Assembly (NCBI GenBank): GCA_016214995.1
Contig: JACRML010000059.1
Span: 23,010 to 87,009, forward strand
Length of the DNA: 64,000 nucleotides
Origin: Deltaproteobacteria bacterium
GTDB taxonomy: Bacteria > Desulfobacterota > GWC2-55-46 > UBA9637
Direction: 5' to 3'
Numbering within the stretch: the first letter of the stretch is position 1; each line of letters starts with the position of its first letter. Positions 8,489 to 62,094 of the stretch are shown here, piece after piece. The notes beneath the pieces were generated by a model. That model was not told the origin of the DNA. It saw only the letters and a program-made list of their open reading frames with translations, and searched no databases. The position numbers and the translations under genes were made by a program.

Positions 8489-8490
8489 AA

Positions 8491-9391: not shown

Positions 9392-9544
9392 AAAACCTCC
9401 TCGTGTATTTTTGTATTCTAAGAATAACTGAAAAACAAACCAAGTCAATAAAAAAAGATAAGCCGCTGTAGTTGTTGACAATTCTTGTTTTAGGGTATAT
9501 TATTCTGCCTGATTAGTTTACACTGGAAAATGCTGGTTCACTAA

Positions 9545-9748: not shown

Positions 9749-9817
9749 CTAAAATTACCTTGCCGTTGCCGTAAGAAGGATTATATAGGCAGAAATTATA
9801 AACGGAGGTTTAAATTT

Positions 9818-10660: not shown

Positions 10661-10726
10661 AAAAGAAGAAACCGAGTCAAGGAATCACCGCATTTACTCT
10701 GATATTCTGGCACTTCTACACTTCAC

Positions 10727-11245: not shown

Positions 11246-11315
11246 AGTTCAGAATGATAGGTTGTAGTAAACCGCCCACCAAACTAATTCCCAAATCTAA
11301 ACAAGGAGGTTACTA

Positions 11316-12893: not shown

Positions 12894-12965
12894 ACATAGT
12901 AAAGGCGGCCTACAAGTAAAAACTTTTTCTTGTCGGCTAATGACTTGTAGGCTTGTAGGTTGTTT

Positions 12966-13355
12966 TTACCCCATTTCTCTTTCAATGTCTTTGATGGCCT
13001 TCTTTGATTCAAAGAAGACTCTGCCTAAAGGTTCGGCTTTCTCCAAGGTAACTACAAGATAGTAGCCTTCCTTAATAGTGGAAATGGCTATGGTGGCGAG
13101 TTCTGTGGATATACCTATTGTCTTGACACTATCCCCGATAAAAGTATTCGGAGACACGTTTTCTCCTTTTAAACGAGTCATAGCATCACGCGTAAGGTTC
13201 AGGATAATGCCTTTGTGGGCACCTATGGCAGGCAAGTCAATATCTGGAAACACTGGAAAATCTGCCACAGTCTCGCCTTCCCAGTCTAGGAGAATAGCAC
13301 CTGTGGCACCTGGCGTTTTTTCAACAAGTTTTTTTAATATGGCTTTGAAAGGCAT
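12966..13355 (-). CDS. Roadblock/LC7 (MglB-like) domain protein, orphan copy
   Basis: 129 aa; the pattern PGATGAILLDWEGETV...YYLVVTL is typical of the Roadblock/LC7 fold. Confidence 0.6.
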   Translation of the reverse strand: MPFKAILKKLVEKTPGATGAILLDWEGETVADFPVFPDIDLPAIGAHKGIILNLTRDAMTRLKGENVSPNTFIGDSVKTIGISTELATIAISTIKEGYYLVVTLEKAEPLGRVFFESKKAIKDIEREMG

Positions 13356-13459
13356 AAAAAGCAGGCTATGGGCAAGAGGCTATAGGCTATAAGTTAAAAA
13401 CATATTTGCTTTATCTGTTTTTCTTATTGCCCCGCGCCTATCGCCTATAGCCTTTTTAG

Positions 13460-20000: not shown

Positions 20001-20131
20001 AAATAAACTCCTTAATAAAAAATCCGAATGACAAAGCTCAAAGTTCGAATGAATGTCAAATGACTAAAAATTTTTCCTTTGTCATTTGGGCTTTGAATTT
20101 TATTTGACATTTGGATTTTGATATTTGGGTT

Positions 20132-21094: not shown

Positions 21095-21188
21095 ACAATA
21101 AGGCTGAAGGCTGATGGCTGAAGAAAGATAAAAAAGGTGCTTCTATCTCTCTTCTTCAGCCTTACGCCTTCAGCCCATCTTTACAACC

Positions 21189-21652: not shown

Positions 21653-21742
21653 CGTAGGCGGTAAGCAGTAGGCAGTAAGGAGTAAGTAGTAAAACCTTCC
21701 TTTCTTTTTTCTGTATACTGCATTCTGCTTACTCCTTACTGT
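21653..21742. repeat. Heptamer-periodic inverted array (intercistronic hairpin) between the yqeY-like gene and rpsU
   Basis: The left arm is TAGGCGG TAAGCAG TAGGCAG TAAGGAG TAAGTAG. The right arm contains the complement CTTACTCCTTACTG and TACTGCATTCTGCTTAC. Confidence 0.75.
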
Positions 21743-21943: not shown

Positions 21944-22045
21944 TAGTTTTTCACCCCCTCCTCTTTCCGATTTTAGATTTACAATTTTGGATTTACGATT
22001 TGGGGTTTTAATTCGTAAATCGTAATTCGTAAATCGCAATTTGTT

Positions 22046-22633: not shown

Positions 22634-22728
22634 TTTTTTAAAAACCCCTTTTAAAATAGAGAATTGGCGAATTAGTGAATTGGTGAATCAGTTCTAATTC
22701 TCTAATCTCTAATTCTCTAATCAACCAA

Positions 22729-23214: not shown

Positions 23215-23296
23215 AGTTAAATAGAGTCAAGATGCAAGATAGTAAGATGCAAGATTTTTTCTTGCTTCTTGCTTCTGTTTTACCCCTTCTACCTCC

Positions 23297-24229: not shown

Positions 24230-24247
24230 TGTATTTTCCCCTTAATT

Positions 24248-24360
24248 CAAATCTCAAATATCAAAACGCAAAACTATAAATTCAAAAAACAAAACTATAG
24301 AAGATTTTAGTTTTGCAGTTTTAAATTTAAGTTTTGAGCTTTGCGTTTTGAGTTTTGCAT
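24248..24360. repeat. Heptamer-periodic inverted array between porA and porB
   Basis: CAAATCT CAAATAT CAAAACG CAAAACT ATAAATT CAAAAAA CAAAACT, followed by ATTTTAG TTTTGCA GTTTTAA ATTTAAG TTTTGAG CTTTGCG TTTTGAG TTTTGCA. Confidence 0.8.
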
Positions 24361-24362
24361 TA

Positions 24363-25553
24363 TTATAAAGTGATATACTTCATCAATGTTTCAATCTTGC
24401 CTGTCTTGAAAATTCCCAAAAGCTCATCAAAAACCTGGACAGCATCTTTTACCATATAATCTCTTCCGCCAAGACCGAATATTCTGCTTACAACCTTTGG
24501 TCGTTTTTCCAATTCATACAGCGCGGAACGAATCTCGTTAAAAAGAGGGCCTCCGAAACCGCTCATAGAATCAGCCCTGTCAAGCACAGCCACAGCCTTC
24601 ACATTTTTAAGCGCACCGGCTATCTCTTCAAAAGGGAAAGGCCTGAAAAGCCTTGGCCTTAAGATGCCAACCTTCTTGCCTGCCTTTCTTAATTCATCCA
24701 CCGCAACCTTGGTAGTACCGGCGGCAGAACTAAGTATTACAATGGCTGCCTCTGCATCGTCCAGTTTATATTTCTCCATAAGACCATACTCTCTGCCGAA
24801 TCTATTTCCAAATTCTTTTCCAATTTCAGAAACCACATCTTTTGCACGGGCAATTGCCTCTGACTGCTGCCGCTTAAATTCAATGTATGTATCAGGCAAA
24901 GTCATTGCCCCGTAAGTAACCGGATGATCCGTATCAAGAAGGGGGTGCTGCGCCTTATACTCTCCTATAAACTGCTTTATATCATCATCAACAATAAGCG
25001 AGATATTTTCAATTGCATGGCTTGTTATAAAACCGTCAAGGCAAACCATAACAGGCAGCAGAACCTTTTCATTTTCAGCTATCCTTACCGCCTGAAAGAG
25101 GTTATCATAGGCCTCCTGCACCGTCTCAGAATAAATCTGTATCCAGCCTGAGTCTCTTGCACCCATTGAATCCGAGTGGTCGCAGTGGATATTTATAGGA
25201 GCTGAAAGCGCCCTGTTTACATCCGTAAGCACTATGGGAAGCCTCATGCCCGAAGCAATATAAAGCATTTCCCACATAAGCGCCAATCCCTGCGATGATG
25301 TTGCAGTCATAACCCTTGCGCCTGCAGCGGATGCACCAATACATGCACTCATGGCCGAATGCTCACTCTCAACCGTTATAAACTCTGTATCAACTTTGCC
25401 GTCAGCAACATAACTTGAAAATTCTTCCACTACCTGAGTAGATGGAGTTATGGGATAAGCCGCACATACATCCGGGTTTATCTGTTTCATGGCATAGGCA
25501 ATTGCAGAATTTCCTGTAAGCCCTACCTGTCCTTTTATCATTGTAATCGCCAT
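24363..25553 (-). CDS. porA: Pyruvate:ferredoxin oxidoreductase, alpha subunit
   Basis: 396 aa with the YPITPST motif, in operon position between the delta and beta subunits. Confidence 0.9.
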   Translation of the reverse strand: MAITMIKGQVGLTGNSAIAYAMKQINPDVCAAYPITPSTQVVEEFSSYVADGKVDTEFITVESEHSAMSACIGASAAGARVMTATSSQGLALMWEMLYIASGMRLPIVLTDVNRALSAPINIHCDHSDSMGARDSGWIQIYSETVQEAYDNLFQAVRIAENEKVLLPVMVCLDGFITSHAIENISLIVDDDIKQFIGEYKAQHPLLDTDHPVTYGAMTLPDTYIEFKRQQSEAIARAKDVVSEIGKEFGNRFGREYGLMEKYKLDDAEAAIVILSSAAGTTKVAVDELRKAGKKVGILRPRLFRPFPFEEIAGALKNVKAVAVLDRADSMSGFGGPLFNEIRSALYELEKRPKVVSRIFGLGGRDYMVKDAVQVFDELLGIFKTGKIETLMKYITL

Positions 25554-25834: not shown

Positions 25835-25923
25835 ATTTAATTTACCCCGTTAGAAATTTATATTTCGAAGCCAGCTACTCTGTTGTTCTTTATCACCTTC
25901 GTGAAAGGAATTTCTAATGGGGT

Positions 25924-26529
25924 TTATTCCCCTTTAGCCTCGTTAAATCCTCTCGTCATCGCATTAATATTCCCTTCTATAATCTTGCTATTGAATTTCT
26001 TGGAGTAGTTCTCCTTGAAGTTATCTATCAGTATATCTAAGGTAATAACATTTGCCACCTTTGCCAGCGCCCCAAGCATTGGTGTGTTGGGCATATTTCT
26101 GCCAATAGCTTCAAGAGATATCTTTGAAGCATCCAGTGTATATACCCTTGTACCCTTACTTTTCAGACCAAGTTCTTTATACATCTCCTGAGGAGATTTT
26201 GAGGTATTTACTATGAATACTGCATTATCAGGAACGCCGGCTGTAACACCACCTGAAGACTCCATGCCTCCTGAGAGAGACATGCCTATCAATGTCGGGT
26301 CAGCTATAAGCACATATTTTGGCTCCGTTACGCGGCAGTGCAACCTTATCGGCTCATCCGAAACCCTGTTGTATGCCGCTACAGGCGCTCCCATTCTTTC
26401 AGGGCCAAATTCAGGAAAGGCCTGAACATATTTGCCCGACCTTAAACAAGATTCCCCAAGCATTTTTGCAGCGGTCACAATACCCTGCTGCGCCCTTCCA
26501 TGCCATCGTATTTCAATGTAATCAGCCAT
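25924..26529 (-). CDS. porG: Pyruvate:ferredoxin oxidoreductase, gamma subunit
   Basis: IRWHGRAQQGIVTAAKML... matches the gamma-subunit N-terminus. The start is set at the ATG at 26529. Confidence 0.9.
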   Translation of the reverse strand: MADYIEIRWHGRAQQGIVTAAKMLGESCLRSGKYVQAFPEFGPERMGAPVAAYNRVSDEPIRLHCRVTEPKYVLIADPTLIGMSLSGGMESSGGVTAGVPDNAVFIVNTSKSPQEMYKELGLKSKGTRVYTLDASKISLEAIGRNMPNTPMLGALAKVANVITLDILIDNFKENYSKKFNSKIIEGNINAMTRGFNEAKGE

Positions 26530-26545: not shown

Positions 26546-26628
26546 TTGCAAAATGCAAAGTGCAAATTTTAAATCGCAAAGTAAAAGGTATACTGCTCAC
26601 TTTTCATTTTGCAATTTGCACTTTGCAA
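26546..26628. repeat. Heptamer-periodic inverted array between recR and porG
   Basis: AAAATGC AAAGTGC AAATTTT AAATCGC AAAGTAA ... ACTTTTC ATTTTGC AATTTGC ACTTTGC. Confidence 0.8.
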
Positions 26629-27239: not shown

Positions 27240-27336
27240 AGAAAACTCAAATATCAAAACTCAAATATCAAAATTAAGGAATGTTACTTTTAAATTTTAA
27301 TTTGTTATTTTGATTTTTGACTTTTTATTTTTGATT
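27240..27336. repeat. Heptamer-periodic inverted array between ybaB and recR
   Basis: CTCAAAT ATCAAAA CTCAAAT ATCAAAA ... GTTATTT TGATTTT TGACTTT TTATTTT TGATTTT. Confidence 0.8.
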
Positions 27337-29317: not shown

Positions 29318-29400
29318 AATTTAAAAAGGATGAGGATGAGGTTAAGGCTGAGGAAATCTTCTCCTTAACCTTGACCTCAACCTTAATCTTATTTCTTAAT

Positions 29401-29523
29401 GGTTACTATTGATAGCTAGGTATCCTTGCGGCACATAGAAGATGTTGCTACCGTTGCTTCCTTCCGGACCTGGCGGGGTTTGCAAACTTTCTATTGCGCA
29501 AGACCCAGCTATCAATACTAACC
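29401..29523 (-). ncRNA. ffs: Signal recognition particle RNA (small, 4.5S-type)
   Basis: On the minus strand a long helix closed by GGTTAGTATTGATAGCTGGG / CCTAGCTATCAATAGTAACC encloses the universal domain IV sequence CCAGGTCCGGAAGGAAGCAACGGTAG. It lies just upstream of dnaX, as in many bacteria. Confidence 0.85.
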
Positions 29524-29627
29524 ACAAGATTACAGTGAACAGTGAATAGTTGTCAGTCGTCAGTATTAGATATATCTTTTCGTTTTTTACTATTCACCAA
29601 TCACTGTTCACCATTCACTGCCTTTAA
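29524..29627. repeat. Heptamer-periodic inverted array between tRNA-Ser(GGA) and ffs
   Basis: ACAGTGA ACAGTGA ATAGTTG TCAGTCG TCAGTAT ... TTACTAT TCACCAA TCACTGT TCACCAT TCACTGC. Confidence 0.8.
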
Positions 29628-29720
29628 TGGCGGAGAGAGAGGGATTTGAACCCTCGGTACACCTTTTGGATGCACACACGATTTCCAGTCGTGCTCCTTC
29701 AACCGCTCGGACATCTCTCC
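29628..29720 (-). tRNA. tRNA-Ser (anticodon GGA)
   Basis: 93-nt cloverleaf folded by hand: acceptor GGAGAGA/TCTCTCC, anticodon stem CACGA/TCGTG with loop CTGGAAA, a long variable arm, T-loop GTTCAAATC, and an encoded CCA. Confidence 0.9.
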
Positions 29721-29797
29721 ATTAACTGCAGTGGTCAGTGAACAGTGTTCGGTTACCTGCTGACCACTCACCACTACCCACTGGTCACTGCCTTTAA

Positions 29798-32060: not shown

Positions 32061-32190
32061 TTTAAATAAACCTCCGTATTTATCTGAACCAAATTTTCGG
32101 TTATGATTACCATACTTTAAGAAATGTTTCAATAATAATTACTCCATCCATAATTATCAATTATTTTATTTCCATGGTGTTCCTTCTCGC

Positions 32191-32331
32191 GAGCTTGTTG
32201 AAAAACTCAACAATCTCTGATTACACAGATAAAAAATATAGATTACACAGATTTAAACTATTGAATTATCTGTGTAATCGTTTTTATAAATCTGTGTAAT
32301 CAGGGCTGCTGGGGTCTTTTTCAACAGCCTG
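32191..32331 (-). mobile_element. GATTACACAGAT MITE, copy 3, inserted in the terminal hairpin of mosaic copy B
   Basis: It is the reverse complement of copy 1 over its whole length. It abuts GATTTTTGGGGAAACC, which is the right half of the mosaic terminal hairpin. Confidence 0.8.
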
Positions 32332-32563
32332 ATTTTTGGGGAAACCTGCAAGTTGGCTGCCAGACAACACACCCCTAAATACCCTCTCGAGAGGGGACTA
32401 AAGGGGTGTGTTATTTGCTACGAGCCGTATATCACCAATACGGTGAGAAGAAAAAATGTGCCGATAACGAAGTATGGCAGGCAAATCGGCTGGCTACACT
32501 TGCTGTGAAGCAATTGCAAGTGGAAGATGTAAAATAGCGAGGTTTTTAATCGCTATTTTACGG
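32331..32563 (-). repeat. Mosaic multi-hairpin element, copy B (nearly complete; terminal hairpin interrupted by a MITE)
   Basis: Collinear with copy D except for small indels. Its end CCGTAA provides the last codon and the stop codon of the PPIase gene. Confidence 0.85.
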
Positions 32564-35957: not shown

Positions 35958-37069
35958 TGCGGCTTGAGGATTTTAACTATCATCTACCAAAAGAACTTAT
36001 TGCCCAGCTTCCCTGTGAGAGACGAGATAAATCAAAATTGATGATACTCCACAAGAAAGACGGGACAGTTGAACATAGAATTTTTTTTGAATTGACAGAC
36101 TATCTTAAACCGGGAGATGTTCTTGTATTAAACAATACAAAGGTTATCCCTGCAAGGCTCTTTGGAAATAAAATAACAGGCGGAGCAATAGAGGTCCTCT
36201 TAATACAAAAATTAGAAATAAGAAATCAGGAATCAGAAATTTCACACCCTGCTTACCACATCCCACATCCCACATCCCAAACATGGCGTTGTTTGATAAA
36301 CTCATCAAAGGGTCTAAAACAAGGCTCTGATGTTTTTTTTGAATCGGGGCTAAATGGCAGGATTATAGAAAAAGCGAATGATGGCAGTTGGATTATTGAG
36401 CTTTACGCTGCTGTTGAAATTGATAAGGCAATAGAGCAGATTGGAAGAATGCCTCTGCCTCGTTATATTAAAAGGAGGCAGATGGCAGTGGGCAGTGGGC
36501 AAGATAGAATCTCTGAACTTGACAGAGAAAGATATCAAACAGTCTTTGCAAAAGAGAAAGGAGCAATTGCAGCCCCAACCGCAGGATTGCATTTTACCGA
36601 TGAGCTTTTAAAAAAAACTCAGGAACTTGGGGTGCAGATTTTTTACATAACCCTGCATACTGGTTTGGGCACATTTAAACCAGTAAAAACAGAGGATATA
36701 ACAAAGCATAAGATAGAGTCAGAATATTACAAGGTTGCTGCTGCTACATTTGAAACTATTAAAAAGGCAAAACATGAAAACAGGAGAATTATTGCTGTCG
36801 GCTCAACAGTTGCAAAAACATTGGAGACAATTGTAAGGCGTAGCTGGGAGGAACCAAACTTGAGCGGCTATACAGACCTGTTTATCTATCCTGGATACAA
36901 ATTTAATGCAGCAGATGCGCTGATAACAAATTTTCATCTCCCTAAATCAACCTTGTTTATGCTTGTATCAGCATTTGCAGGAAAAGACTTGGTAAGGAAA
37001 GCCTACCAGGAGGCCATAAAGCAAGGCTATAGGTTTTTCAGCTATGGCGATGCAATGATGATAATATGA
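35957..37069 (+). CDS. queA: S-adenosylmethionine:tRNA ribosyltransferase-isomerase
   Basis: MRLEDFNYHLPKELIAQ, PTAGLHFT and FFSYGDAMMI are present, with end-to-end QueA similarity apart from the low-complexity inserts. Confidence 0.95.
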   Translation: MRLEDFNYHLPKELIAQLPCERRDKSKLMILHKKDGTVEHRIFFELTDYLKPGDVLVLNNTKVIPARLFGNKITGGAIEVLLIQKLEIRNQESEISHPAYHIPHPTSQTWRCLINSSKGLKQGSDVFFESGLNGRIIEKANDGSWIIELYAAVEIDKAIEQIGRMPLPRYIKRRQMAVGSGQDRISELDRERYQTVFAKEKGAIAAPTAGLHFTDELLKKTQELGVQIFYITLHTGLGTFKPVKTEDITKHKIESEYYKVAAATFETIKKAKHENRRIIAVGSTVAKTLETIVRRSWEEPNLSGYTDLFIYPGYKFNAADALITNFHLPKSTLFMLVSAFAGKDLVRKAYQEAIKQGYRFFSYGDAMMII

Positions 37070-37399
37070 ATCCTTACATATGTTCGAAATCATATGGCAA
37101 GCCGAAATAGCAATAATCGGTAGCATTGTCAAGAGGAGACCTATAGTCAATGACATAAATAAGCAGATAGCTTTTTTAAATAAATTTCTAATTTCCAAAT
37201 CCTAATTTCTAATAAAAAGTCAAATATCAAATAAAAATCAACACATTGAAATTTTAGTCATTGAACATTTTATTGAAAATTAGGCATTAGGATTTAGAAA
37301 TTGTAGTTAGACATTATCCATGTCTCCAATATTCTACGCTACCAAATATTTAACCCTTTATTTTTATTTCGCTATAAGATATTATTCTGCGGATAATAA

Positions 37400-38539
<1,140 letters not shown>

Positions 38540-38593
38540 ACAGGAAACAAAATCTTTCCCCGCTTACTGTATGCTGTCTACTGACTACTAAAA

Positions 38594-38929: not shown

Positions 38930-39021
38930 AATATAGACTATGGGCAATGGGCGAGAGGCAATGGGGAAAACCTATAGCCCATAGCCTATAACCTCTTGCC
39001 TGTATTATTGGAGGTTTTTAA

Positions 39022-40614: not shown

Positions 40615-40711
40615 AAACAGAGGCTGGGGACTTGAGACTGGGGGCTGGTAAAAAATAATCCCGAGTCCCTAGCCCCCAGCTCCATACCCCTAACTTCAAG
40701 GAGGATGTAAC

Positions 40712-42877: not shown

Positions 42878-43080
42878 ATAGTCAACGATAAAAATAAGTA
42901 GATGCTACAATAAAATTCCTAATTTCTAAATCCTAATTTCTAATAACAAATGAAACTTCAAGGCTTGATTTTTTAATTTTATTAGAAATTAGAAATTAGA
43001 ACTTAGGAATTCTTCTAATGTTTCATTAGAAACATGTCCCCGAAGGCCTTCATCGGGGATTAGACATTAGGATTTAGGAT
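42878..43080 (+). repeat. Conserved 37-nt box (ATAGTCAACGATAAAAATAAGTAGATGCTACAATAAA) plus long CTAATTTCTAA-type heptamer hairpin, copy 1
   Basis: The box recurs, reverse-complemented on the plus strand, at 59757-59793 and 62055-62091, each time next to the same kind of hairpin. Confidence 0.75.
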
Positions 43081-43290: not shown

Positions 43291-43373
43291 TCAACTCCCC
43301 CTTTTTCAAAAATACAAGGTTGAGGTTAAGGTCAAAGATAAGAAAACCCTTCACCCCAATCTCAGCCTCAACT

Positions 43374-43895
43374 TTAACCTGTTTTCACTTTCTTTTTCAC
43401 CCATTTCATCAACCCGCCTGTATTTATAAGCTCTTGCATAAACGGAGGGATTGCCTGAGCCTTAAAGATTTGCGATTTACGATTTTCGATTTGCGATTGC
43501 ATAATGGCAATCTCGCCACTGTTTAAATCTATTTCTACTTCATCACCTTCTTTTATGGCGTCCACTGCCTCAGGGCATTCCAATATCGGCAAACCCATGT
43601 TGAATGAATTGCGGTAAAATATTCTGGCAAAGCTCTTTGCGATGACGCATGAAACCCCCACTGCTTTTATGGCAATGGGCGCATGTTCCCTTGATGAACC
43701 GCAGCCAAAATTTTTATCAGCAACAATGATATCTCCGGGCTTCATCTTATTTACAAATTGCTGGTCTGCATCCTCCATACAGTGTCTTGCAAGCTCTTTC
43801 GGATCAGATGTATTTAAATATCTTGCCGGTATAATCTGGTCGGTATCAATATCTGCACTAAACTTCCACGCCTTACCTTTGAATTTCATACCCAC
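43374..43895 (-). CDS. leuD: 3-isopropylmalate dehydratase small subunit
   Basis: [25 protein letters not shown] and the C-terminal GGL..W pattern of short-type LeuD. Confidence 0.9.
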
Positions 43896-44853: not shown

Positions 44854-44924
44854 TGCAATTTACGATTTACGATTTACGAATTGCGATTTGCGAATTAAAA
44901 AAATCGAAAATCGACAATCGAAAA
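44854..44924. repeat. Heptamer-periodic inverted array between leuC and the methyltransferase gene
   Basis: ATTTACG ATTTACG ATTTACG AATTGCG ATTTGCG ... AAAATCG AAAATCG ACAATCG AAAATCA. Confidence 0.8.
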
Positions 44925-47782: not shown

Positions 47783-47890
47783 AATAAATAAGTGTCGGAG
47801 TGTCAAAGAGTCAGAGAGTCAGAGTTAAAAAACCAATAACGTTAAAGGTATTTTTGCTATGACTCTTTGAATCTCTGACTCTTCTTTATC

Positions 47891-48785: not shown

Positions 48786-48861
48786 ATTTCGCCTCCTACA
48801 AAGGATTTACGATTTTAGATTTGAACTTGTAATTCGTAAATCGTAAATTTATTTCATCATT

Positions 48862-49503: not shown

Positions 49504-49576
49504 CCCCTATTTAGGAGATAGGCGGTGGGAAGTAGGAAGTGGGCAAAACAAAATCCCACATCCCACATCCCACATC

Positions 49577-50734
<1,158 letters not shown>

Positions 50735-51223
50735 TTACTTCCCACTCTTCGGGCTTCTTGCCATTGCAATCTTACCTGTTCTTACTATCTCTTTAATACC
50801 GAATGGCCTTAAAAGCTCTGTAATAGCGCCCACCTTTTCTGCATCGCCTGTCATCTCAATAGTATATGTTGTTGGGCTTACATCAACAACCTTGCCTCTG
50901 AAGATATCTATAACGCTCAGTATCTCAGCTCTGTCATCTGCATTTGCATTGACCTTTATCAGGGCTAATTCCCTTTCAATGTGCTCTTCGGCTGTCAGAT
51001 CGCTTACCTTGATAACATTGATAAGCTTATTCAGCTGCTTTGTAATCTGCTCTACAATCTGGTCATCTCCTGTAGTAACAATCGTCATCCTTGAAACCTT
51101 CGGGTCAAGGGTCTCCGCAACACACAGGCTTTCAATATTGAAGCCCCTGCCAGAGAAAAGGCTGGAGACCTTGCTCAAGACGCCAAACTCATTGTCTACA
51201 AGAATTGATATGGTGTGACGCAT
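50735..51223 (-). CDS. ilvN: Acetolactate synthase small (regulatory) subunit
   Basis: MRHTISILVDNEFGVLSKVSSLFSGRGFNIESL is an ACT-domain N-terminus typical of IlvN/IlvH. Confidence 0.9.
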   Translation of the reverse strand: MRHTISILVDNEFGVLSKVSSLFSGRGFNIESLCVAETLDPKVSRMTIVTTGDDQIVEQITKQLNKLINVIKVSDLTAEEHIERELALIKVNANADDRAEILSVIDIFRGKVVDVSPTTYTIEMTGDAEKVGAITELLRPFGIKEIVRTGKIAMARSPKSGK

Positions 51224-51322
51224 CCTTCCACCCAACCACAGGAATCAGGAAATAGGAATTAAAAATTAGAAAAACTCTTTTCTATTTCCTCTTTTCTCTT
51301 TCCTTCCACCTTTCATCTGTCT

Positions 51323-54796: not shown

Positions 54797-54895
54797 GAAG
54801 AAACAAGAGGTCAGAAGTAAGAAACAAGAAAATCTTGTATCTTACCTCACGCTTCTTATATCTGACCTCTTGCTTCTTGCGTCTTGCTTCTTGAA
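54797..54895. repeat. Heptamer-periodic inverted array between the DUF465 gene and ilvD (right arm is coding)
   Basis: AGAAACA AGAGGTC AGAAGTA AGAAACA AGAAAAT ... CTGACCT CTTGCTT CTTGCGT CTTGCTT CTTG. Confidence 0.8.
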
Positions 54896-55204: not shown

Positions 55205-55339
55205 ATATTACTAGTTTAACAGATATTAGTATAACATCTTTTGCTTGTCAACCCGAGAAAATACAGGTTAAGATTGAGGTAAAGGTTTAGAATTTCCTCA
55301 ACCTTAACCTCAACCTTAACCTTGACCTTAACCTTGACC

Positions 55340-56074
55340 TTAGCCTTTCCTCATCTTAAGTTCTGCCTCTGAGGGTCTCAGATATTTAAGCTCAACAGTT
55401 TGAGGGCTGTCACTATCCCCATTTTTAAATCTCTTCCATGCCAGCAAGCCGATGTTTGATGCCTTTATTGTCCACAGATACTCGGGGGCAATAATAGCCT
55501 TATCCTTTAGCATAGCTTTAATAGGATTTCCATATACCTTTAGACCATCACCAAGAAATATTGTCGACTTTGTTATTCTCTCAATAAGTGCTTCAGGGCT
55601 TAAGGCAGCATCGGGCATAAGACAAGTTGCAAGCTGCAGGCCGCAGGTTTCAAGTCTATCATTATCTTGCATCTTGAAACTTGCATCTTGAAACTTGTAG
55701 ATACCCGCATAAACCTCTTTTTTCCGCGCATCCAACAAAGGGCATATCTGTTTGTCAGAATAAGGCAGATTCATTGCCAGCGCCTCTAAAGTTGAGACGC
55801 AAACCACCTTCTTGTTTAAACTCCATGCAAGCCCCTTGATAGTTGAAAGTCCAATCCGCAGCCCTGTAAAAGAACCCGGTCCTGCAGCTAGTGCAAAACC
55901 ATCAACATCTTCTATGCTTGCACCAATACCATGCAGAAGGGTTTTTATTGAAGGCAGCAGTCTCTCTGCATGGGTTTCTTGAATACAGGTTGTTAATTCA
56001 GCAATGAGCCGGCCATCTTCAAGCAGTGCAATGCTCCCTGACGCAGTGGCAGTATCTATAGCAAGTATTTTCAT
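55340..56074 (-). CDS. tsaB: tRNA threonylcarbamoyladenosine biosynthesis protein TsaB
   Basis: MKILAIDTATASGSIALLEDG and GPGSFTGLRIG are present. Confidence 0.9.
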   Translation of the reverse strand: MKILAIDTATASGSIALLEDGRLIAELTTCIQETHAERLLPSIKTLLHGIGASIEDVDGFALAAGPGSFTGLRIGLSTIKGLAWSLNKKVVCVSTLEALAMNLPYSDKQICPLLDARKKEVYAGIYKFQDASFKMQDNDRLETCGLQLATCLMPDAALSPEALIERITKSTIFLGDGLKVYGNPIKAMLKDKAIIAPEYLWTIKASNIGLLAWKRFKNGDSDSPQTVELKYLRPSEAELKMRKG

Positions 56075-56161
56075 AGCCCTCAGCTTTAAGCTATCAGCAG
56101 TCAGCTATTAGCTATCCGTAAAATTATTTAAGCTGGTTGCTGATCGCTGATAGCCGAAATT

Positions 56162-57559
56162 TTAATTTATCAATCTACGTAAAAACCCAATTATATCTAG
56201 CCGCATCACATCGTTGTATGTCACAAATAGCATCAATAAAACCAGAAGACCAATTCCTATATTCTGGGTCATGGTCATAATCCTCTCGCTCAATGGCTTG
56301 CCCCGGAGCGCCTCTATGCCAAAGAATATAAGAAAACCACCATCCAGAACAGGGATTGGTAATAGGTTCAATATGCCCAACTGCAGGCTTAAGAATGCCA
56401 TGAGAGAAAGAAGCGCTGTCAGGCCTGACTCAGCAGCCTGTCCTGCCACCTGAGCAATCATTAAAGGGCCGCCAAGTGTTTTAATGGATATCTCTCCGAC
56501 AAAAAGCTTTTTTATAATTACAAATGTCATTATGGTTAATTCGCCCATCTTTTTTACCCCCTCAACAACTGCTCCAGCAGGGCCATAACGTCTTGTAACC
56601 GTATCCTGAAAAGGTGATACACCTATTGCATATCCCTTTATGTTTTCATTCCACTGCGACTTAATGCGGAGTTCAAATATCTCATTCCCTCTTTTTACCT
56701 GAAAAAGTCTTTCCTCTGCTGCTTCTTTCTTTTCAGTTTCTGGTTTCTGGCCTCTTGCTTCTTGTTTCTGACTTCCTGCTTCTTGCTTCTGACTCTGGAT
56801 TGCCTGTTGGAGTTCTATCCAGTGGTCTATCTTAACCCCGTCAACAGAAAGGATTGTATCGCCAATCTTTAGCCCGGCTTTTTCAGCAGGCAATCCTTGA
56901 ATAAGCCCGCCCACAGTAGGACTCATGGGAGGGAAAAATCCGCTAACCCCTCCACCGGTTTGAGAAGAGGCTTCGGGGGTAAATGTAATATCTTGAACCC
57001 TACCATTATTTTTAACTATGAGTTTGAGCGCTTTATTCGGGTTGGAGATAATAGCGGTATTAAGCTCCTCCCAGTTTTTAATATACGTGCCGTCTATTGA
57101 TTCTATTACATCTCCCTTTTTTAAACCTGCCTTATCGGCATTTTCACCCATCACAACATAGCCGACTATAGGCTCTTTATCCAAATATGCAGGAACTTGG
57201 ATTCCTATGAGGTATATAAGCGGCAGAAGCGAAAATGCCAGAGTAAGGTTCATTATCGGCCCTGCTGCAACTATTGCCGCCTTTTTTGAAAGAGGTTTCT
57301 TGGCAAATGATCTTTCATTGTCAGTTGGGCTTACCTCTTCACCGGTTGATTCACCAACCATCTTCACATAGCCACCGAGCGGCAGAAGGGATATTAGATA
57401 TTCTGTTTCACCCCTTTTTACGCCGATTATCTTAGGCCCGAAACCGAGGGAAAATTTTAACACTCCGACCCCTGAAAGCTTTGCAATAATAAAGTGGCCA
57501 AGTTCATGTATAAAAACTAAAATACCGAGAACTACTAAAAATGATATAACCGTTGTCAT
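56162..57559 (-). CDS. rseP: RIP (site-2) zinc metalloprotease RseP
   Basis: HELGHF, two PDZ-like regions (GLKKGDVI, GLKIGDTI) and the C-terminal NLLPIPVLDGG motif. Confidence 0.9.
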   Translation of the reverse strand: MTTVISFLVVLGILVFIHELGHFIIAKLSGVGVLKFSLGFGPKIIGVKRGETEYLISLLPLGGYVKMVGESTGEEVSPTDNERSFAKKPLSKKAAIVAAGPIMNLTLAFSLLPLIYLIGIQVPAYLDKEPIVGYVVMGENADKAGLKKGDVIESIDGTYIKNWEELNTAIISNPNKALKLIVKNNGRVQDITFTPEASSQTGGGVSGFFPPMSPTVGGLIQGLPAEKAGLKIGDTILSVDGVKIDHWIELQQAIQSQKQEAGSQKQEARGQKPETEKKEAAEERLFQVKRGNEIFELRIKSQWNENIKGYAIGVSPFQDTVTRRYGPAGAVVEGVKKMGELTIMTFVIIKKLFVGEISIKTLGGPLMIAQVAGQAAESGLTALLSLMAFLSLQLGILNLLPIPVLDGGFLIFFGIEALRGKPLSERIMTMTQNIGIGLLVLLMLFVTYNDVMRLDIIGFLRRLIN

Positions 57560-57606: not shown

Positions 57607-58827
57607 TTACTGCCTATTACTTATTTTTTTTACTATCTCCTTTGCCAATTCTCTGGCACATTTATCAGCTTCCAATATTTCTTCCAATTGTGATGTGCTG
57701 GGCGCTGAGCGCTGAATTTTAGATTTTTTATTCTGGCTTCTGGCTTCCGGCTTCTGGCTTCTGTATTTTTCCATCGTGTCTTCTACAATCTCCGTTATAT
57801 CTGTAAATTTAATTTTCTTCTCTAAAAACGCCTCCACTGCAACTTCGTCAGCGGCATTCAGCACTGCCGGCATAACACCGCCTGTCTTTATTGCCTCATA
57901 TGCAAGCCTAAGCGCCGGGAATCTGTCTTTGTCAGGCTCCATAAATGTAAGTTTATCCATTTTACAAAGGTCAAGCGAACCAATACCGCAGTCAATTCTC
58001 TCATCAGGATAGGTAAGGGCGTAAGATATAGGCCCTTTCATATCCGTTGGCCCAAGTTGGGCCACAATAGAACCGTCAATATATTCAACCATAGAATGAA
58101 CAACGCTCTGAGGATGGATGTGGACGCCTATCTTTTCAGGCAGCATATCAAAAAGCCACATAGCCTCAATTACCTCCAAACCTTTATTCATAAGCGTTGC
58201 TGAATCTATGGTAACCTTTTTACCCATCTTCCACTTTGGATGATTCAATGCCTGTTCATGGGTGATGTCTGACAACTTTTCAATAGGCAGGTTTAAAAAA
58301 GGGCCGCCGGATGCAGTTAGTATCAGTCTTTTTATGTCTCCCTTTTTATGACCCACAAGAGACTGAAATATGGCGCTGTGTTCGCTGTCAATGGGAAGAA
58401 GGTTAATCTTATTTTTTTTGACCTCCTTCATCACTAATCCACCTGCCATAACAAGAACCTCTTTATTAGCAAGGGCAATATCTTTTTTTGCTTTTATAGC
58501 AGCCAGGGTCGGTGCAAGGCCACTTGCCCCAACCAGTGCAGAGACCACCAAATCCACACCGCAGGTAGCTGTTTCGAGCAAACCATCGTCTCCATAATAA
58601 GATTTAGGTTTATATGATAAATCTAGTTTTAATTCATTGATGTCTTTTGCATCTGTAAGCGATATAACCTTTGGCTTGAATTCCTTTATCTGCCTTTTGA
58701 ACAGGTCTTTATTCCTACCTGCTGCAAGGGCTATTATCTTAAATCTGTCTGGATGCCTTCTGACAATCTCAAGGGTGCTCTGGCCTATAGAACCTGTAGA
58801 GCCAAGAATTGCAAGTTTTTTTGCCAT
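57607..58827 (-). CDS. dxr: 1-deoxy-D-xylulose 5-phosphate reductoisomerase
   Basis: LAILGSTGSIGQSTL, LANKE, PIDSEHSAIFQ and NKGLEVIEA motifs. Confidence 0.95.
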   Translation of the reverse strand: MAKKLAILGSTGSIGQSTLEIVRRHPDRFKIIALAAGRNKDLFKRQIKEFKPKVISLTDAKDINELKLDLSYKPKSYYGDDGLLETATCGVDLVVSALVGASGLAPTLAAIKAKKDIALANKEVLVMAGGLVMKEVKKNKINLLPIDSEHSAIFQSLVGHKKGDIKRLILTASGGPFLNLPIEKLSDITHEQALNHPKWKMGKKVTIDSATLMNKGLEVIEAMWLFDMLPEKIGVHIHPQSVVHSMVEYIDGSIVAQLGPTDMKGPISYALTYPDERIDCGIGSLDLCKMDKLTFMEPDKDRFPALRLAYEAIKTGGVMPAVLNAADEVAVEAFLEKKIKFTDITEIVEDTMEKYRSQKPEARSQNKKSKIQRSAPSTSQLEEILEADKCARELAKEIVKKISNRQ

Positions 58828-59640: not shown

Positions 59641-59793
59641 AAGTAATTTCTAATGAAATGTCCAATGACTAAATTTCCAACCTGCCTGTGCTATGGCAGA
59701 CAGGTGTTTTTTGATATTTAACATTTTATTGGAAATTAGGATTTAGAAATTAGAAATTTATTCTAGTATCTACTTATATTTGTCATTGACTAT
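59641..59793 (-). repeat. 37-nt box plus heptamer hairpin, copy 2 (between uppS and cdsA)
   Basis: Near-identical to copy 3 over most of its length. The uppS TAG stop lies inside the box. Confidence 0.8.
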
Positions 59794-60539: not shown

Positions 60540-60616
60540 TAGTAAAAATCAGAAATTAGAAAAGAGAAATTAGAAGAGAGAAAAACTCTTTCCTGTTTCC
60601 TAATTCCTCTTTTCTG

Positions 60617-61894: not shown

Positions 61895-61944
61895 AAAACC
61901 TCCGTGTTTATAGTGAACGACTTAAATAAGTTGACATGGTATTA

Positions 61945-62092
61945 AGAAATCCTAAATCCTAATGTCTAATTTCTAATGAATGTCCAATGACTAAATTTCC
62001 AATGTTTTTTGACATTTGACATTTTATTAGAAATTAGGATTTAGAAATTAGAAATTTATTGTAGTATCTACTTATTTTTGTCGTTGACTATA
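61945..62092 (-). repeat. 37-nt box plus heptamer hairpin, copy 3 (between ribBA and ribH)
   Basis: Near-identical to copy 2. The box starts 3 nt after the ribBA stop. Confidence 0.8.
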
Positions 62093-62094
62093 AT

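What the first reader, a model, noticed from the sequence alone, without database searches (positions are those of the whole stretch)
24248..24360. Nearly every intergenic gap carries an inverted pair of degenerate heptamer arrays (STRR-like words folded into long hairpins)
This locus is representative. One arm is a tandem run of 7-nt words (CAAATCT CAAATAT CAAAACG CAAAACT ...). After a short A/T-rich loop there is an arm of roughly complementary words (TTTTGAG CTTTGCG TTTTGAG TTTTGCA). I see the same design, with different word families, at more than 25 places:
- 13365-13455
- 20025-20130
- 21100-21185
- 21653-21742
- 21960-22045
- 22655-22725 (7/8-nt period)
- 23222-23290
- 26546-26628
- 27240-27336
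- 29325-29395
- 29524-29627
- 29721-29797
- 37190-37320
- 38935-39000
- 40620-40690
- 43300-43380
- 44854-44924
- 47810-47890 (8-nt period)
- 48795-48860
- 49510-49576
- 50594-50734
- 51240-51322
- 54797-54895
- 55255-55340
- 56075-56160
- 60541-60616
Word families recur at distant loci: GTCAAAT at 20025 and 50594, AACCTTA at 29325, 43300 and 55255, and CGATTTA at 21960, 44854 and 48795. Because of the periodicity each hairpin can pair in several registers. Tandem heptamers (STRR repeats) are known from heterocystous cyanobacteria. An inverted-array version saturating operon spacers in a non-cyanobacterial gene context is something I have not seen described.
Basis: partly seen in the sequence, partly recalled or inferred. 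Interest (0 to 1): 0.7.

Follow-up and report, generated by a model that had tools for sequence, protein, structure and literature searches.

The report
Periodic hairpin repeats filling operon spacers
In this uncultured groundwater bacterium about three quarters of the gaps between genes of housekeeping operons hold a short palindromic repeat element built from two inverted runs of 6-8-base (mostly 7-base) words; it is a real, lineage-specific, extreme variant of the heptamer-repeat and REP/MITE-like elements known from cyanobacteria, Xanthomonas and Geobacter, and it is not an ordinary terminator.

Summary
Pooled intergenic DNA has a strong 7-nt period (lag 7 z=+11.8; coding DNA shows none). 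The flagged locus is a 120-nt imperfect hairpin (RNA MFE -38.6 kcal/mol, z=-7.3) that runs from the porA stop codon to the porB Shine-Dalgarno (SD) site.

I delimited 31 such hairpins. Of 59 arms, 49 have period 7, 5 period 6 and 4 period 8. The arms also pair when shifted by whole periods.

"Nearly every gap" is overstated:
- 29 of 39 co-directional spacers in 13.3-62.1 kb are periodic.
- 1 of 10 in the first 13 kb is periodic.
- None of 4 divergent or convergent gaps is periodic.

They are not terminators. They have no U-tract and lie between subunit genes and between tRNA and SRP RNA genes.

Relatives show presence/absence and different word families at the same spacer. The same family turns up at unrelated loci with sharp ends. 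High-GC relatives have none. The same words also occur as in-frame insertions inside genes.

New here: the 5' arm is purine-rich in 23 of 24 clear cases.

Best reading: these are selfish, slippage-prone REP/MITE-like palindromes tolerated between stop codon and ribosome-binding site (RBS), with likely side effects on mRNA. Inverted heptamer arrays outside cyanobacteria are already published, so this is a new variant of a known kind.

The parts
24243..24362 (-). Flagged element: periodic (7-nt) hairpin filling the porA->porB spacer. It starts 0 nt after the porA stop (24363-24365) and ends 13 nt before the porB ATG (24229). The SD site AAGGGGA lies just 3' of the stem.
13359..13457 (-). 7-nt periodic hairpin, smc->hyp129 spacer (AGGCTAT family)
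20010..20129 (-). 7-nt periodic hairpin, hyp320->ppdK spacer (GTCAAAT family)
21102..21175 (-). 7-nt periodic hairpin, yqeY->hyp320 spacer (GGCTGAA family)
21654..21739 (-). 7-nt periodic hairpin, rpsU->yqeY spacer (GTAAGCA family)
21976..22035 (-). 7-nt periodic hairpin, mglA->rpsU spacer (CGATTTA family). The orthologous spacer of L003 has the same loop but a different unit number and order.
22657..22719 (-). 8-nt periodic hairpin, mglB->mglA spacer (GAATTAGA family)
23216..23283 (-). 7-nt periodic hairpin, porB->mglB spacer (GCAAGAA family). It is inserted between the ancestral SD site (AGGGG) and the ATG.
26554..26627 (-). 7-nt periodic hairpin, recR->porG spacer (TGCAAAA family). The same family sits at the orthologous site of L001.
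27247..27334 (-). 7-nt periodic hairpin, ybaB->recR spacer (CAAAAAT family). The orthologous spacer is 10-20 nt in L001 and L003.
29323..29393 (-). 6-nt periodic hairpin between SRP RNA (29411-29510) and dnaX
29533..29620 (-). 7-nt periodic hairpin between tRNA-Ser(gga) (29628-29720) and SRP RNA
29722..29797 (-). 7-nt periodic hairpin filling the whole spacer between the two tRNA-Ser genes
37144..37311 (+). Family-A element (AATTTCT/ATTAGAA heptamers) with the 26-nt end motif TAGTCAATGACA..., queA->tgt spacer
38524..38589 (+). 7-nt periodic hairpin (AGACAGT) at the tgt stop / tgt->yajC spacer
38930..39006 (+). 7-nt periodic hairpin, yajC->secD spacer
40620..40683 (+). 7-nt periodic hairpin, secD->secF spacer
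42879..43013 (-). Family-A element with end motif, just upstream of the leuB SD site
43316..43375 (-). 6-nt periodic hairpin (CCTTAA family) directly after the leuD stop
44856..44913 (-). 7-nt periodic hairpin, leuC->methyltransferase spacer (CGATTTA family)
47797..47884 (-). 8-nt periodic hairpin, pssA->leuA spacer. It belongs to the GAGTCANA family, also found in L001, L002 and 16 metagenome contigs.
48804..48842 (-). Short 7-nt periodic hairpin (CGATTTA family), psd->pssA spacer
49525..49573 (-). 7-nt periodic hairpin (ATCCCAC), ilvC->psd spacer
50609..50737 (-). 7-nt periodic hairpin (GTCAAAT family), ilvN->ilvC spacer
51247..51304 (-). 7-nt periodic hairpin (weak fold), ilvB->ilvN spacer
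54798..54878 (-). 7-nt periodic hairpin (GCAAGAA family) upstream of ilvD
55265..55322 (-). 6-nt periodic hairpin (CCTTAA family) after the tsaB stop
56085..56159 (-). 7-nt periodic hairpin, rseP->tsaB spacer
59644..59792 (-). Family-A element (one end motif; the uppS stop codon TAG is part of the motif), uppS->cdsA spacer
60558..60615 (-). 7-nt periodic hairpin, nusB->uppS spacer
61908..62093 (-). Complete family-A element with the end motif at both ends in inverted orientation. It fills ribBA stop -> ribH SD.
36209..36279 (+). Heptamer arrays in frame inside queA (codons 85-108). The insertion is absent from T. maritima QueA and variable among relatives.
36484..36501 (+). Second in-frame heptamer array inside queA (codons 176-182), at a second insertion hot spot
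37931..37964 (+). In-frame GTTCACA x4.9 array inside tgt ([12 protein letters not shown])
43467..43498 (-). In-frame CGATTTA-family array inside leuD ([11 protein letters not shown])
55630..55697 (-). Inverted heptamer pair in frame inside tsaB
56736..56806 (-). In-frame GCAAGAA-family array inside rseP (SQKQEAG SQKQEAR GQKPETE)
57697..57763 (-). In-frame heptamer arrays inside dxr (YRSQKPEARSQ...)

Best explanation
The hairpins are copies of lineage-specific, non-coding palindromic repeat elements. They work like REP/BIME or MITE elements, but each arm is a degenerate tandem array of 6-8-nt (mostly 7-nt) words.

Origin and spread (inferred from comparative data). This clade has a general DNA-level tendency to expand heptamer words, most simply by replication slippage. 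That tendency acts both between and inside genes. Inverted copies arise and are partly kept in step by template switching within the palindrome. Whole elements are copied into new sites by transposition or recombination; the enzyme is unknown.

Why they sit where they do (inferred). They survive in transcribed spacers between co-directional genes, exactly between the stop codon (or RNA gene end) and the next ribosome-binding site (RBS). There the folded RNA hairpin loops out and leaves the stop / Shine-Dalgarno (SD) / start geometry usable.

Effect (inferred, not shown). They are not terminators. As long intercistronic stem-loops they probably act as barriers to 3' exonucleases or as processing sites. 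They probably also modulate access to the downstream RBS. Any regulatory value is secondary to selfish or neutral persistence.

Polarity. The shared purine-rich 5' arm and pyrimidine-rich 3' arm looks like a filter on which palindromes are tolerated next to an RBS or by Rho.
For: Anatomy.
- Stems begin 0-13 nt after the stop codon or tRNA end and stop 1-28 nt before the start codon, with the SD site outside the stem.
- Hairpins fill the tRNA-tRNA-SRP RNA-dnaX spacers.
- Pairing also works in registers shifted by whole periods: complementarity is 0.65-0.8 in the best register, 0.5-0.65 shifted, and about 0.28 otherwise.

Not terminators.
- The scan found 9 canonical terminator-like sites against 17.2 expected, and none at the hairpins on the sense strand.
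- Elements lie between subunit genes of one enzyme, porA and porB.

Insertion-like behaviour.
- The porG->porD spacer is 1-2 nt in L001, L003, L029 and L005, but 84-89 nt in the window and L035, and 205 nt in L002.
- The ybaB->recR spacer is 10-20 nt in L001 and L003, but about 100 nt with three different word families in the window, L002 and L035.
- The porA->porB spacer carries a different element in each low-GC genome and is 12-16 nt in distant relatives.
- In porB->mglB the insertion lies after the SD site in the window but before it in L003 and L035.

Families and dispersal.
- The 26-nt end motif of family A occurs at 4 sites (0 expected), and at 61908-62093 it sits at both ends in inverted orientation.
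- The GAGTCANA family is present in the window, L001, L002 and 16 metagenome contigs.
- Four copies of that family align from AGTGTCAAAGAGTCA to TGACACT with unrelated flanks, and three of them share a 60-nt loop.

Lineage specificity.
- An automated scan found 24 periodic hairpins in 64 kb of the window, 22 in 88 kb of close relatives, and 0 in 145 kb of high-GC relatives.

DNA-level process.
- In-frame heptamer arrays lie inside queA, tgt, tsaB, rseP, dxr, leuD and spoIID. The queA insertions are absent from T. maritima QueA and vary among relatives.
- There is no sense-strand excess of G:U over A:C mismatches (77 vs 96, p=0.17).
- Unit number and order differ between orthologous hairpins that share the same loop (window vs L003).

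Polarity.
- The purine-rich arm comes first in 23 of 24 clear cases, and in 18:1, 19:1 and 9:1 in independent sets. Non-periodic hairpins are balanced.

Precedents.
- Intergenic stem-loops set transcript ratios in operons (PMC4423207).
- REPs are thought to be selfish, RNA-active palindromes (PMC3733652).
- Heptamer slippage has been linked to the DNA polymerase footprint (Mrazek 2007, as cited in PMC4692102).
Against: - No transposase, RAYT or other mobilising enzyme is encoded in the window.
- No target-site duplication was seen.
- Most window hairpins share only words with other loci, without clear ends, so for them in-situ growth cannot be separated from old insertions.
- Two assemblies that are 99.9% identical (L085 and L001) show no change in three hairpins, so there is no direct sign of hypermutability.
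- The restriction to operon-internal spacers, the near absence from the first 13 kb and the strict purine-first polarity are not predicted by pure neutrality and could mean function.
- No expression or RNA-end data exist for this organism, so every statement about RNA effects is inference.
Confidence: 0.55

Rival explanations
1. Selected post-transcriptional punctuation. The hairpins are maintained because they set the relative stability, processing or translation of neighbouring cistrons. This could work as selective RNA processing and stabilisation, as RNase III sites, or as RBS gating opened by the terminating ribosome or by single-strand binding proteins. The 7-nt unit would reflect a protein that reads heptamers, such as cold-shock or S1-type OB folds.
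For: - Exact stop-to-SD placement.
- Confinement to co-directional operon spacers of housekeeping genes: 29/39 against 1/10 in the accessory first 13 kb, and 0/4 in divergent or convergent gaps.
- Purine-first polarity specific to periodic hairpins, with SD-like tetramers 30 vs 6 and a C-poor first arm.
- In porB->mglB, folding would restore SD-AUG spacing.
- The porA->porB spacer is occupied in all low-GC relatives, by different elements.
- Stem-loops tune operon stoichiometry in Clostridium (PMC4423207).
- CspB binds one protein per heptamer (as cited in PMC4679880).
Against: - Presence/absence differs between close relatives, and unrelated words occupy the same spacer.
- There is no G:U over A:C bias on the sense strand.
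- The same arrays occur inside ORFs.
- Periods of 6 and 8 also occur.
- High-GC relatives with the same operons manage with 12-16-nt spacers.
Confidence: 0.2
2. Pure in-situ microsatellite growth. Each spacer grew its own arrays by slippage and local inverted duplication. No element moves between sites, and shared words reflect convergent mutational preference.
For: - In-ORF arrays.
- Unit number and order changes at orthologous hairpins.
- Pairing in several registers.
- No transposase and no target-site duplication.
- Heptamer SSR excess is known in many bacteria (PMC4692102).
Against: - Near-identical 130-nt elements, including a non-repetitive 60-nt loop, sit in unrelated flanks with sharp ends.
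- The 26-nt non-periodic end motif of family A occurs at 4 loci where 0 are expected.
- Spacers of 1-2 nt are unlikely seeds for 84-205-nt palindromes.
Confidence: 0.12
3. DNA-level sites. The arrays would be binding arrays for a nucleoid or global regulatory protein, or cruciform-forming sequences acting on supercoiling or replication, as was proposed for the paired heptanucleotide sites of Geobacter metallireducens.
For: - Symmetry with respect to strand: no sense bias, and the polarity is strand-invariant.
- Geobacter precedent (PMC2700814).
- A PUR-family single-strand binding protein is encoded in the window.
Against: - More than ten unrelated word families and three unit lengths argue against one sequence-specific protein.
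- They are absent from promoter-containing divergent gaps.
- The PUR protein is also present in high-GC relatives that lack the hairpins.
Confidence: 0.08
4. Intrinsic terminators or attenuators of an unusual, U-tract-less type.
For: - Stable hairpins sit just after stop codons.
- Canonical terminators are scarce in the region.
- Some 3' arms are U-rich.
Against: - They lie inside conserved operons, between subunits of one enzyme, and between tRNA and SRP RNA genes that must be co-transcribed.
- There is no U-tract.
- The 2 convergent gaps of at least 40 nt show no significant periodicity, although TRF does list a weak 8-mer (2.6 copies) at 12944-12963 in one of them.
Confidence: 0.05

Closest known systems
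Inverted GGGAATC heptamer arrays of Xanthomonas (Rehm et al. 2015, PMC4692102)
   Same: - Tandem heptamers in intergenic DNA.
- Often two arrays in convergent orientation that can form a stem-loop.
[quoted passage not shown]
- Transcribed.
   Different: - Xanthomonas has one G-rich, G-quadruplex-forming word.
- Here there are more than ten unrelated, mostly A/T-rich word families and three unit lengths.
- Here most operon spacers are occupied.
- Here the arrays are placed from stop to SD.
- Here the purine-first polarity applies.
STRR (short tandemly repeated repetitive) heptamers of heterocystous cyanobacteria
   Same: - Tandem 7-nt units in non-coding DNA.
- Many word types.
- Also found within genes.
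- Function unknown.
   Different: - The host is different.
- None of the STRR consensus words occurs in tandem.
- Here the inverted pairing of two arrays into one hairpin is the rule.
- Whether cyanobacterial STRRs are commonly paired is a recollection of mine and was not tested.
REP/BIME elements and RAYT-mobilised palindromes (PMC3733652)
   Same: - Short imperfect palindromes.
- Many copies in transcribed extragenic DNA, especially in operons.
- Species-specific families.
- Occasional in-gene copies.
- Presumed selfish origin with effects on mRNA stability.
   Different: - REPs are 20-40 bp, non-periodic and carry a GTAG or CGTC tag.
- These elements have a median length of 75 nt (39-186), are internally periodic and lack the tag (5/31 against 5.8 expected).
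- No RAYT was seen.
MITEs such as Correia/NEMIS, ERIC, RUP, and the P. gingivalis MITE with an internal minisatellite (PMC4596501, abstract only)
   Same: - Non-autonomous elements with inverted ends.
- Dispersed at unrelated sites.
- Co-transcribed with neighbouring genes.
- Family A and the GAGTCANA family have defined ends.
   Different: - No target-site duplication was found.
- No cognate transposase was found.
- Most copies consist of nothing but the periodic arms.
Paired tandem heptanucleotide 'global regulator sites' of Geobacter metallireducens (PMC2700814)
   Same: - Multicopy intergenic sites made of about five tandem heptanucleotides.
- Mostly found in pairs on opposite strands.
- The host is a 'deltaproteobacterium'.
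   Different: - Geobacter has a few fixed consensus words, interpreted as protein-binding sites.
- It has no report of spacer saturation or of many families.
TAACTGA direct repeats of Beggiatoaceae (PMC4679880)
   Same: - Heptamer arrays immediately upstream of start codons.
- Also inside ORFs.
- Suggested post-transcriptional role, with possible CSP or S1 binding.
   Different: - Beggiatoaceae have a single word.
- The repeats are direct, with only one inverted case in 170 sets.

Membership tests
STRR (cyanobacterial short tandemly repeated repetitive sequences) | Tandemly amplified heptanucleotide units in non-coding DNA | tested here: met
   Period 7 in 49 of 59 arms. Intergenic lag-7 z=+11.8.
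STRR (cyanobacterial short tandemly repeated repetitive sequences) | STRR consensus words (CCCCAGT, TTGGTCA, CAACAGT; words recalled from Mazel et al. 1990, not checked in a paper here) | tested here: not met
   No trimer of any of these words with up to 2 mismatches on either strand.
STRR (cyanobacterial short tandemly repeated repetitive sequences) | Host is a (heterocystous) cyanobacterium | tested here: not met
   The closest loci are groundwater 'Deltaproteobacteria/Thermodesulfobacteriota' MAGs, with PorA 86-91% identical.
REP/BIME | 20-40 bp imperfect palindrome in many extragenic copies | tested here: inconclusive
   The elements are palindromic, extragenic and multicopy, but 39-186 nt long (median 75) and internally periodic.
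REP/BIME | Unpaired GTAG or CGTC tag at one end (PMC3733652) | tested here: not met
   5 of 31 hairpins have such a tetramer within 8 nt of a stem end. Shuffled flanks give 5.8 +/- 2.0.
REP/BIME | Association with a RAYT (IS200/IS605-type tyrosine transposase) gene | not testable with these tools
   None of the roughly 60 ORFs in the window has a transposase domain. The rest of the genome is not available.
MITE | Terminal inverted repeats and defined ends | tested here: met
   Met for two families only. Family A has a 26-nt end motif at 4 loci and at both ends of 61908-62093. The GAGTCANA family has homology that stops sharply at AGTGTCA...TGACACT in 4 contexts.
MITE | Target-site duplication | tested here: not met
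   No direct repeat flanks filled sites when compared with empty sites, or the four aligned copies.
MITE | Copies at unrelated genomic sites; presence/absence between relatives | tested here: met
Intrinsic (Rho-independent) terminator | G+C-rich stem with a short loop, followed by a U-tract, at the end of a transcription unit | tested here: not met
   The scan found 9 sites against 17.2 expected, none at the hairpins on the sense strand. The elements lie inside operons and between tRNA and SRP RNA genes.
Heptameric SSR inverted pairs (Xanthomonas type, PMC4692102) | Two heptamer arrays in convergent orientation close together in intergenic DNA, variable between related species | tested here: met
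Heptameric SSR inverted pairs (Xanthomonas type, PMC4692102) | G-rich GGGNATC unit able to form G-quadruplexes | tested here: not met
   No GGGAATC trimer. The words are diverse and mostly A/T-rich.
Rickettsia-type palindromic elements inserted in frame in genes (RPE) | Repeat element inserted in frame within protein-coding genes, tolerated in surface loops | tested here: inconclusive
   In-frame heptamer arrays lie in 7 genes. The queA insertions are absent from the T. maritima structure sequence and variable in relatives. Most are single arrays and not whole palindromes, and no CGTC tag is present.
Known RNA families (Rfam 15) | Match at gathering threshold | tested here: not met
   Only SRP RNA and two tRNAs match in the window. 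There is no match at any hairpin.

The most novel reading that the evidence does not exclude
The periodic palindromes form a clade-wide, evolvable intercistronic control layer. Each element gates the downstream RBS and the stability of the upstream cistron. The strand-invariant purine-first polarity exists because the first-transcribed arm must be C-poor and SD-like, and the second arm must be pyrimidine-rich. The 7-nt unit is read by OB-fold (cold-shock or S1) or PUR-type single-strand binding proteins, one protein per unit. Slippage in unit number then tunes expression ratios within operons.
Probability: 0.12. Interest if true: 0.8.

Novelty: new variant of a known kind. Interest (0 to 1): 0.5.

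Why it matters
Heptamer repeats have been known since 1990 and are over-represented in many bacteria, but their origin and function are still open.

This clade offers an extreme natural case:
- many word families;
- three quarters of operon spacers occupied;
- filled and empty orthologous sites in close relatives;
- in-frame copies inside essential genes;
- a simple, previously unremarked rule, purine-rich arm first, that separates these elements from ordinary hairpins.

That combination makes several questions testable: how such repeats arise, why operon junctions tolerate them, and whether they tune expression.

There is also a practical point. These elements distort gene calling, because ORF starts get extended into the arms. 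They also inflate protein length variation in MAGs.

Tried and rejected
- **Back-up stop codons in the 5' arm.** Rejected. The number of frames closed by a stop is no higher in 5' arms than in 3' arms.
- **Sense-strand RNA selection seen as G:U excess.** Not found (77 vs 96).
- **Loop orientation relative to transcription or to the + strand.** Only a weak, non-significant trend.
- **REP tags GTAG/CGTC.** At chance level.
- **Known heptamer words** (STRR1-3, TAACTGA, GGGAATC, TTTTGAA, Geobacter class 3). None occurs in tandem.
- **Terminator scan.** No enrichment.
- **Rfam.** No family matches at the hairpins.
- **PUR-repeat protein as a specific partner.** Its homologues also occur in high-GC relatives without hairpins, so there is no correlation.
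- **Hypermutability.** Two 99.9%-identical assemblies show no change in three hairpins.
- **Sliding-window MFE alone.** It did not separate the A/T-rich hairpins from coding background, so periodicity plus shuffles was used instead.
- **Mrazek et al. 2007.** The paper could not be read. It is cited only through PMC4692102.
Full report
**What the window is**

The 64-kb window (about 42% G+C) encodes housekeeping operons.
- On the minus strand:
  - smc, ppdK, yqeY, rpsU, mglA/mglB-like genes and porGDAB;
  - recR, ybaB and dnaX;
  - SRP RNA and two tRNA-Ser genes;
  - ilvDBNC, psd, pssA and leuACDB;
  - tsaB, rseP, dxr, cdsA and uppS;
  - nusB, ribH and ribBA.
- On the plus strand: spoIID, queA, tgt, yajC and secDF.
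- The first 13 kb hold accessory genes: a Phd/ParE toxin-antitoxin pair, an HNH endonuclease, a nitroreductase and others.

The closest public loci are groundwater MAGs labelled Deltaproteobacteria or Thermodesulfobacteriota, with PorA 86-91% identical. Gene order from dnaX to ppdK is conserved in them.

**Checking the observation**

At the flagged locus two 55-nt arms (24243-24297 and 24308-24362) are 75% complementary around a 10-nt loop. Eleven further inverted pairs were reported there; for the four I checked (I2-I5) the register is offset from the main pair by 7, 14 or 21 nt. The sense-strand RNA folds at -38.6 kcal/mol, against a shuffle mean of -17.4 (z=-7.3).

Across the window, TRF reports about 60 period-7 rows. 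Pooled intergenic autocorrelation exceeds dinucleotide shuffles at lag 7 (z=+11.8), lag 14 (+10.0) and lag 21 (+6.7). Coding DNA shows only the codon period.

All 27 listed loci contain an inverted pair, and most fold better than shuffles. I delimited 31 hairpins, median 75 nt and 2.5 kb in total.

The best period of the arms is 7 in 49 of 59, 6 in 5 and 8 in 4.

Complementarity is 0.65-0.8 in the best register, 0.5-0.65 when one arm is shifted by one or two periods, and about 0.28 at other shifts. The multi-register claim is therefore real. The best register still carries extra, mirrored information.

**How widespread the hairpins are in the window**

'Nearly every gap' is too strong.

| Spacer class (at least 40 nt) | Periodic |
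|---|---|
| Co-directional, 13.3-62.1 kb | 29 of 39 |
| Co-directional, first 13 kb | 1 of 10 |
| Divergent | 0 of 2 |
| Convergent | 0 of 2 |

Here 'periodic' means a 6-8-nt period with z of at least 3. Of the 30 periodic spacers in the window, 23 also have MFE z of -2 or lower.

**Anatomy**

Stems start 0-13 nt after the upstream stop codon and end 1-28 nt before the next start codon. The SD site lies just outside the 3' arm. For porA->porB the layout is stop, 120-nt hairpin, AAGGGGA, 6 nt, ATG.

Hairpins also fill the spacers in the string tRNA-Ser / hairpin / tRNA-Ser / hairpin / SRP RNA / hairpin / dnaX.

In porB->mglB the element sits between the ancestral SD site and the ATG. L001 has GCAGGGGT|TTAACTatg, and the window has the same flanks with about 62 nt inserted. 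Looping out would restore an SD-AUG spacing of about 9 nt (the effect is inferred).

Some downstream genes (recR, mglB, ppdK) have no SD site after the hairpin.

**Not terminators**

The consensus scan of 13-32 kb finds fewer terminator-like sites than shuffles (9 vs 17.2), and none at the hairpins on the sense strand. The elements lie between subunit genes of one enzyme and between stable RNA genes. Rfam has no matching family.

**Comparative evidence**

The same spacers differ sharply between relatives.

| Spacer | No element | Element present |
|---|---|---|
| porG->porD | 1-2 nt in L001, L003, L029, L005 | 84-89-nt hairpin in the window and L035; 205-nt nested 8-mer palindrome in L002 |
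| ybaB->recR | 10-20 nt in L001, L003 | about 100 nt with three unrelated families: CAAAAAT (window), GAGTCAAA (L002), AATTAGG (L035) |
| porA->porB | 12-16 nt (SD only) in more distant relatives | a different element in each low-GC genome |

Within one genome a family occupies several spacers: GAGTCANA three times in L002, and TTCGGAG twice in L035. The same family also appears at non-orthologous spacers of different genomes.

Where an orthologous hairpin is retained (mglA->rpsU in the window vs L003), the loop is identical but the unit number and order differ.

The lag-7 signal and periodic hairpins are confined to the ~42-43% G+C relatives. An automated scan finds 24 in the window, 22 in 88 kb of close relatives and 0 in 145 kb of high-GC relatives.

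A Nitrospiria-labelled MAG contig (L044) also has inverted AACTTAT/TATAAGT arrays.

**Families with defined ends**

Family A (AATTTCT/ATTAGAA heptamers) carries a 26-nt non-periodic end motif at four loci, where 0 are expected. At 61908-62093 the motif is at both ends in inverted orientation, and the element runs exactly from the ribBA stop to the ribH SD site.

A metagenome scan with a 23-nt word of the GAGTCANA family returned 16 contigs (40-52% G+C), mostly as inverted pairs next to an SD site and start codon. Four copies align from AGTGTCAAAGAGTCA to TGACACT with unrelated flanks. Three of them share a non-repetitive 60-nt loop.

No target-site duplication was seen, and no transposase is encoded in the window.

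**Arrays inside genes**

The same words occur in frame inside these genes:
- queA (two sites)
- tgt
- tsaB
- rseP (SQKQEAG SQKQEAR GQKPETE)
- dxr
- leuD
- spoIID

The two queA insertions are absent from T. maritima QueA. They coincide with hypervariable, low-complexity hot spots in clade relatives, whose lengths range from 346 to 424 aa; distant homologues lack them.

This points to a DNA-level expansion process that selection then filters.

Consistent with that, mismatches in the stems show no excess of G:U over A:C on the sense strand (77 vs 96, p=0.17).

**A new regularity**

In 23 of 24 clear cases the 5' arm is purine-rich and the 3' arm pyrimidine-rich (p=3e-6).

A palindrome is its own reverse complement, so this is not a transcription-strand effect. 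Both strands read purine arm first.

An independent scan gives 18:1 in the window, 19:1 in close relatives and 9:1 in the metagenome contigs. Non-periodic hairpins are balanced: 8:5, 7:6, 3:4 and 11:12.

The 5' arms hold 30 SD-like tetramers against 6 in the 3' arms. Their C:G ratio is 137:237, against 234:141 in the 3' arms.

Two readings are plausible, and both are inference:
- SD-like words are kept away from the downstream RBS.
- The first-transcribed arm is a poor Rho loading site, and the C-rich arm pairs as soon as it is made.

A 'back-up stop codon' reading was tested and rejected.

**Interpretation**

The best-supported view combines two processes.
- Heptamer-biased slippage acts throughout these genomes.
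- Whole palindromes are dispersed into new sites.

The survivors are concentrated where a looped-out RNA hairpin does little harm, between a stop codon and the next RBS. The elements work like REP/BIME or MITE elements and like the intercistronic stem-loops of selective RNA processing and stabilisation (PMC3733652, PMC4423207). They fail REP membership (no GTAG/CGTC tag), STRR membership (host and words) and terminator membership.

A selected regulatory role cannot be excluded. It is favoured by the confinement to operon junctions and by the polarity rule. It is disfavoured by the turnover between close relatives.

**Relation to the literature**

- Heptamer SSR excess in bacteria, and the idea that it reflects the DNA polymerase footprint, go back to Mrazek et al. 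2007, cited here through PMC4692102.
- Xanthomonas has 70-75 convergent GGGAATC pairs with stem-loop potential that vary between species (PMC4692102).
- Geobacter metallireducens has paired tandem heptanucleotide sites (PMC2700814).
- Beggiatoaceae have direct TAACTGA repeats before start codons and in ORFs (PMC4679880).
- Nostoc heptamers affect recF/recO expression (bioRxiv 10.1101/2022.06.06.494920).

The design is therefore not new in kind. What is new:
- the multiplicity of families;
- the near-saturation of operon junctions;
- the filled and empty orthologous sites;
- the in-frame copies;
- the purine-first rule.

**Limits**

- Only 64 kb of this genome, 10-kb flanks in relatives and short metagenome contigs were available.
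- There are no expression data.
- Gene starts were set by ORF logic and by alignment to relatives.
- The counts for divergent and convergent gaps are tiny.

Noticed in passing
window about 43092-43298 (- strand), between leuD and leuB: A 68-aa ORF matches Pfam PurA (PUR ssDNA/RNA-binding repeat; 38.2 bits, cutoff 25). It is flanked on both sides by periodic hairpins. Homologues at 72-93% identity are common in the wider MAG clade, including high-GC genomes without hairpins, so it does not correlate with the elements.
   Followed up: partly
window 3860-4100, 9540-9780, 32190-32330, about 55090-55240: A dispersed ~140-nt repeat family. It is built around inverted GATTACACAGAT / ATCTGTGTAATC 12-mers inside an outer GTTGAAAAA...TTTTTCAACAGCC palindrome. 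It is not heptamer-periodic and could be an operator-like or MITE-like element.
   Followed up: partly
window 32320-32540, 61130-61400, 63400-63520: Another dispersed family, 86-145 nt at 91-99% identity. It includes a very stable hairpin (61151-61250, -57 kcal/mol) and a conserved tail GCCGATAACGAAGT...AATCGCTATTTTA. It lies in long spacers that lack periodic hairpins and has no Rfam match.
   Followed up: partly
window 48422-48658: A 118-nt tandem duplication (2.0 copies, 97% identical) spans the 5' end of the pssA-like gene and the DNA upstream of it. The unit is not a multiple of 3. It is either a real duplication or an assembly artefact.
   Followed up: no
window 1-13000: The accessory-gene segment (response regulator-PilZ, ZIP, Phd/ParE, nitroreductase, GAF, rhodanese, radical SAM, HNH, OsmC) has almost no periodic hairpins (1 of 10 spacers), although its G+C content is similar to the rest. 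It may be recently acquired, or made of monocistronic units.
   Followed up: partly
L044 45-75, 673-752, 1372-1569, 1676-1856: A Nitrospiria-labelled groundwater MAG contig (PorA 64% identical) carries many AACTTAT/TATAAGT heptamer arrays, some in inverted pairs. The design is therefore not limited to one lineage.
   Followed up: partly
L035, between yqeY and hyp320 (about 8170-11195): A 3-kb insertion is absent from the window and the other relatives. One of its ORFs has an RHS/YD-type C-terminal core (…YYDSKTGRFLSEDPIGFEGGDVNLYVYTKNNPINYTDPTGL…) followed by small cysteine-rich ORFs. This looks like a polymorphic-toxin cassette; it was judged by eye only.
   Followed up: no
L029 11195-11345 (porA->porB spacer): In GWC2_42_11 this spacer holds two copies of a ~45-nt non-periodic hairpin unit (AAATCGTAGGCACGGTTTCAACCGTGCTTTATTTGC). 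A different kind of repeat thus occupies the same junction.
   Followed up: no
window 25839-25928 (porG->porD spacer) and L035 3575-3660: A non-periodic 84-89-nt hairpin (ACCCCRTTAGAAATT...AATTTCTAACGGGGT) is shared by the window and L035. Four relatives have only 1-2 nt between the genes at this site. The upstream SD site lies inside the end of porG, so folding would keep it near the porD ATG.
   Followed up: partly
window 54900-55140 (- strand): An 80-aa ORF with no Pfam match lies upstream of ilvD. Its last ~12 codons (SRSKTQEARGQI) are encoded by the 5' arm of the hairpin at 54798-54878. This shows how the elements extend or distort ORF calls; the porG and leuB starts were likewise over-extended into arms.
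   Followed up: partly
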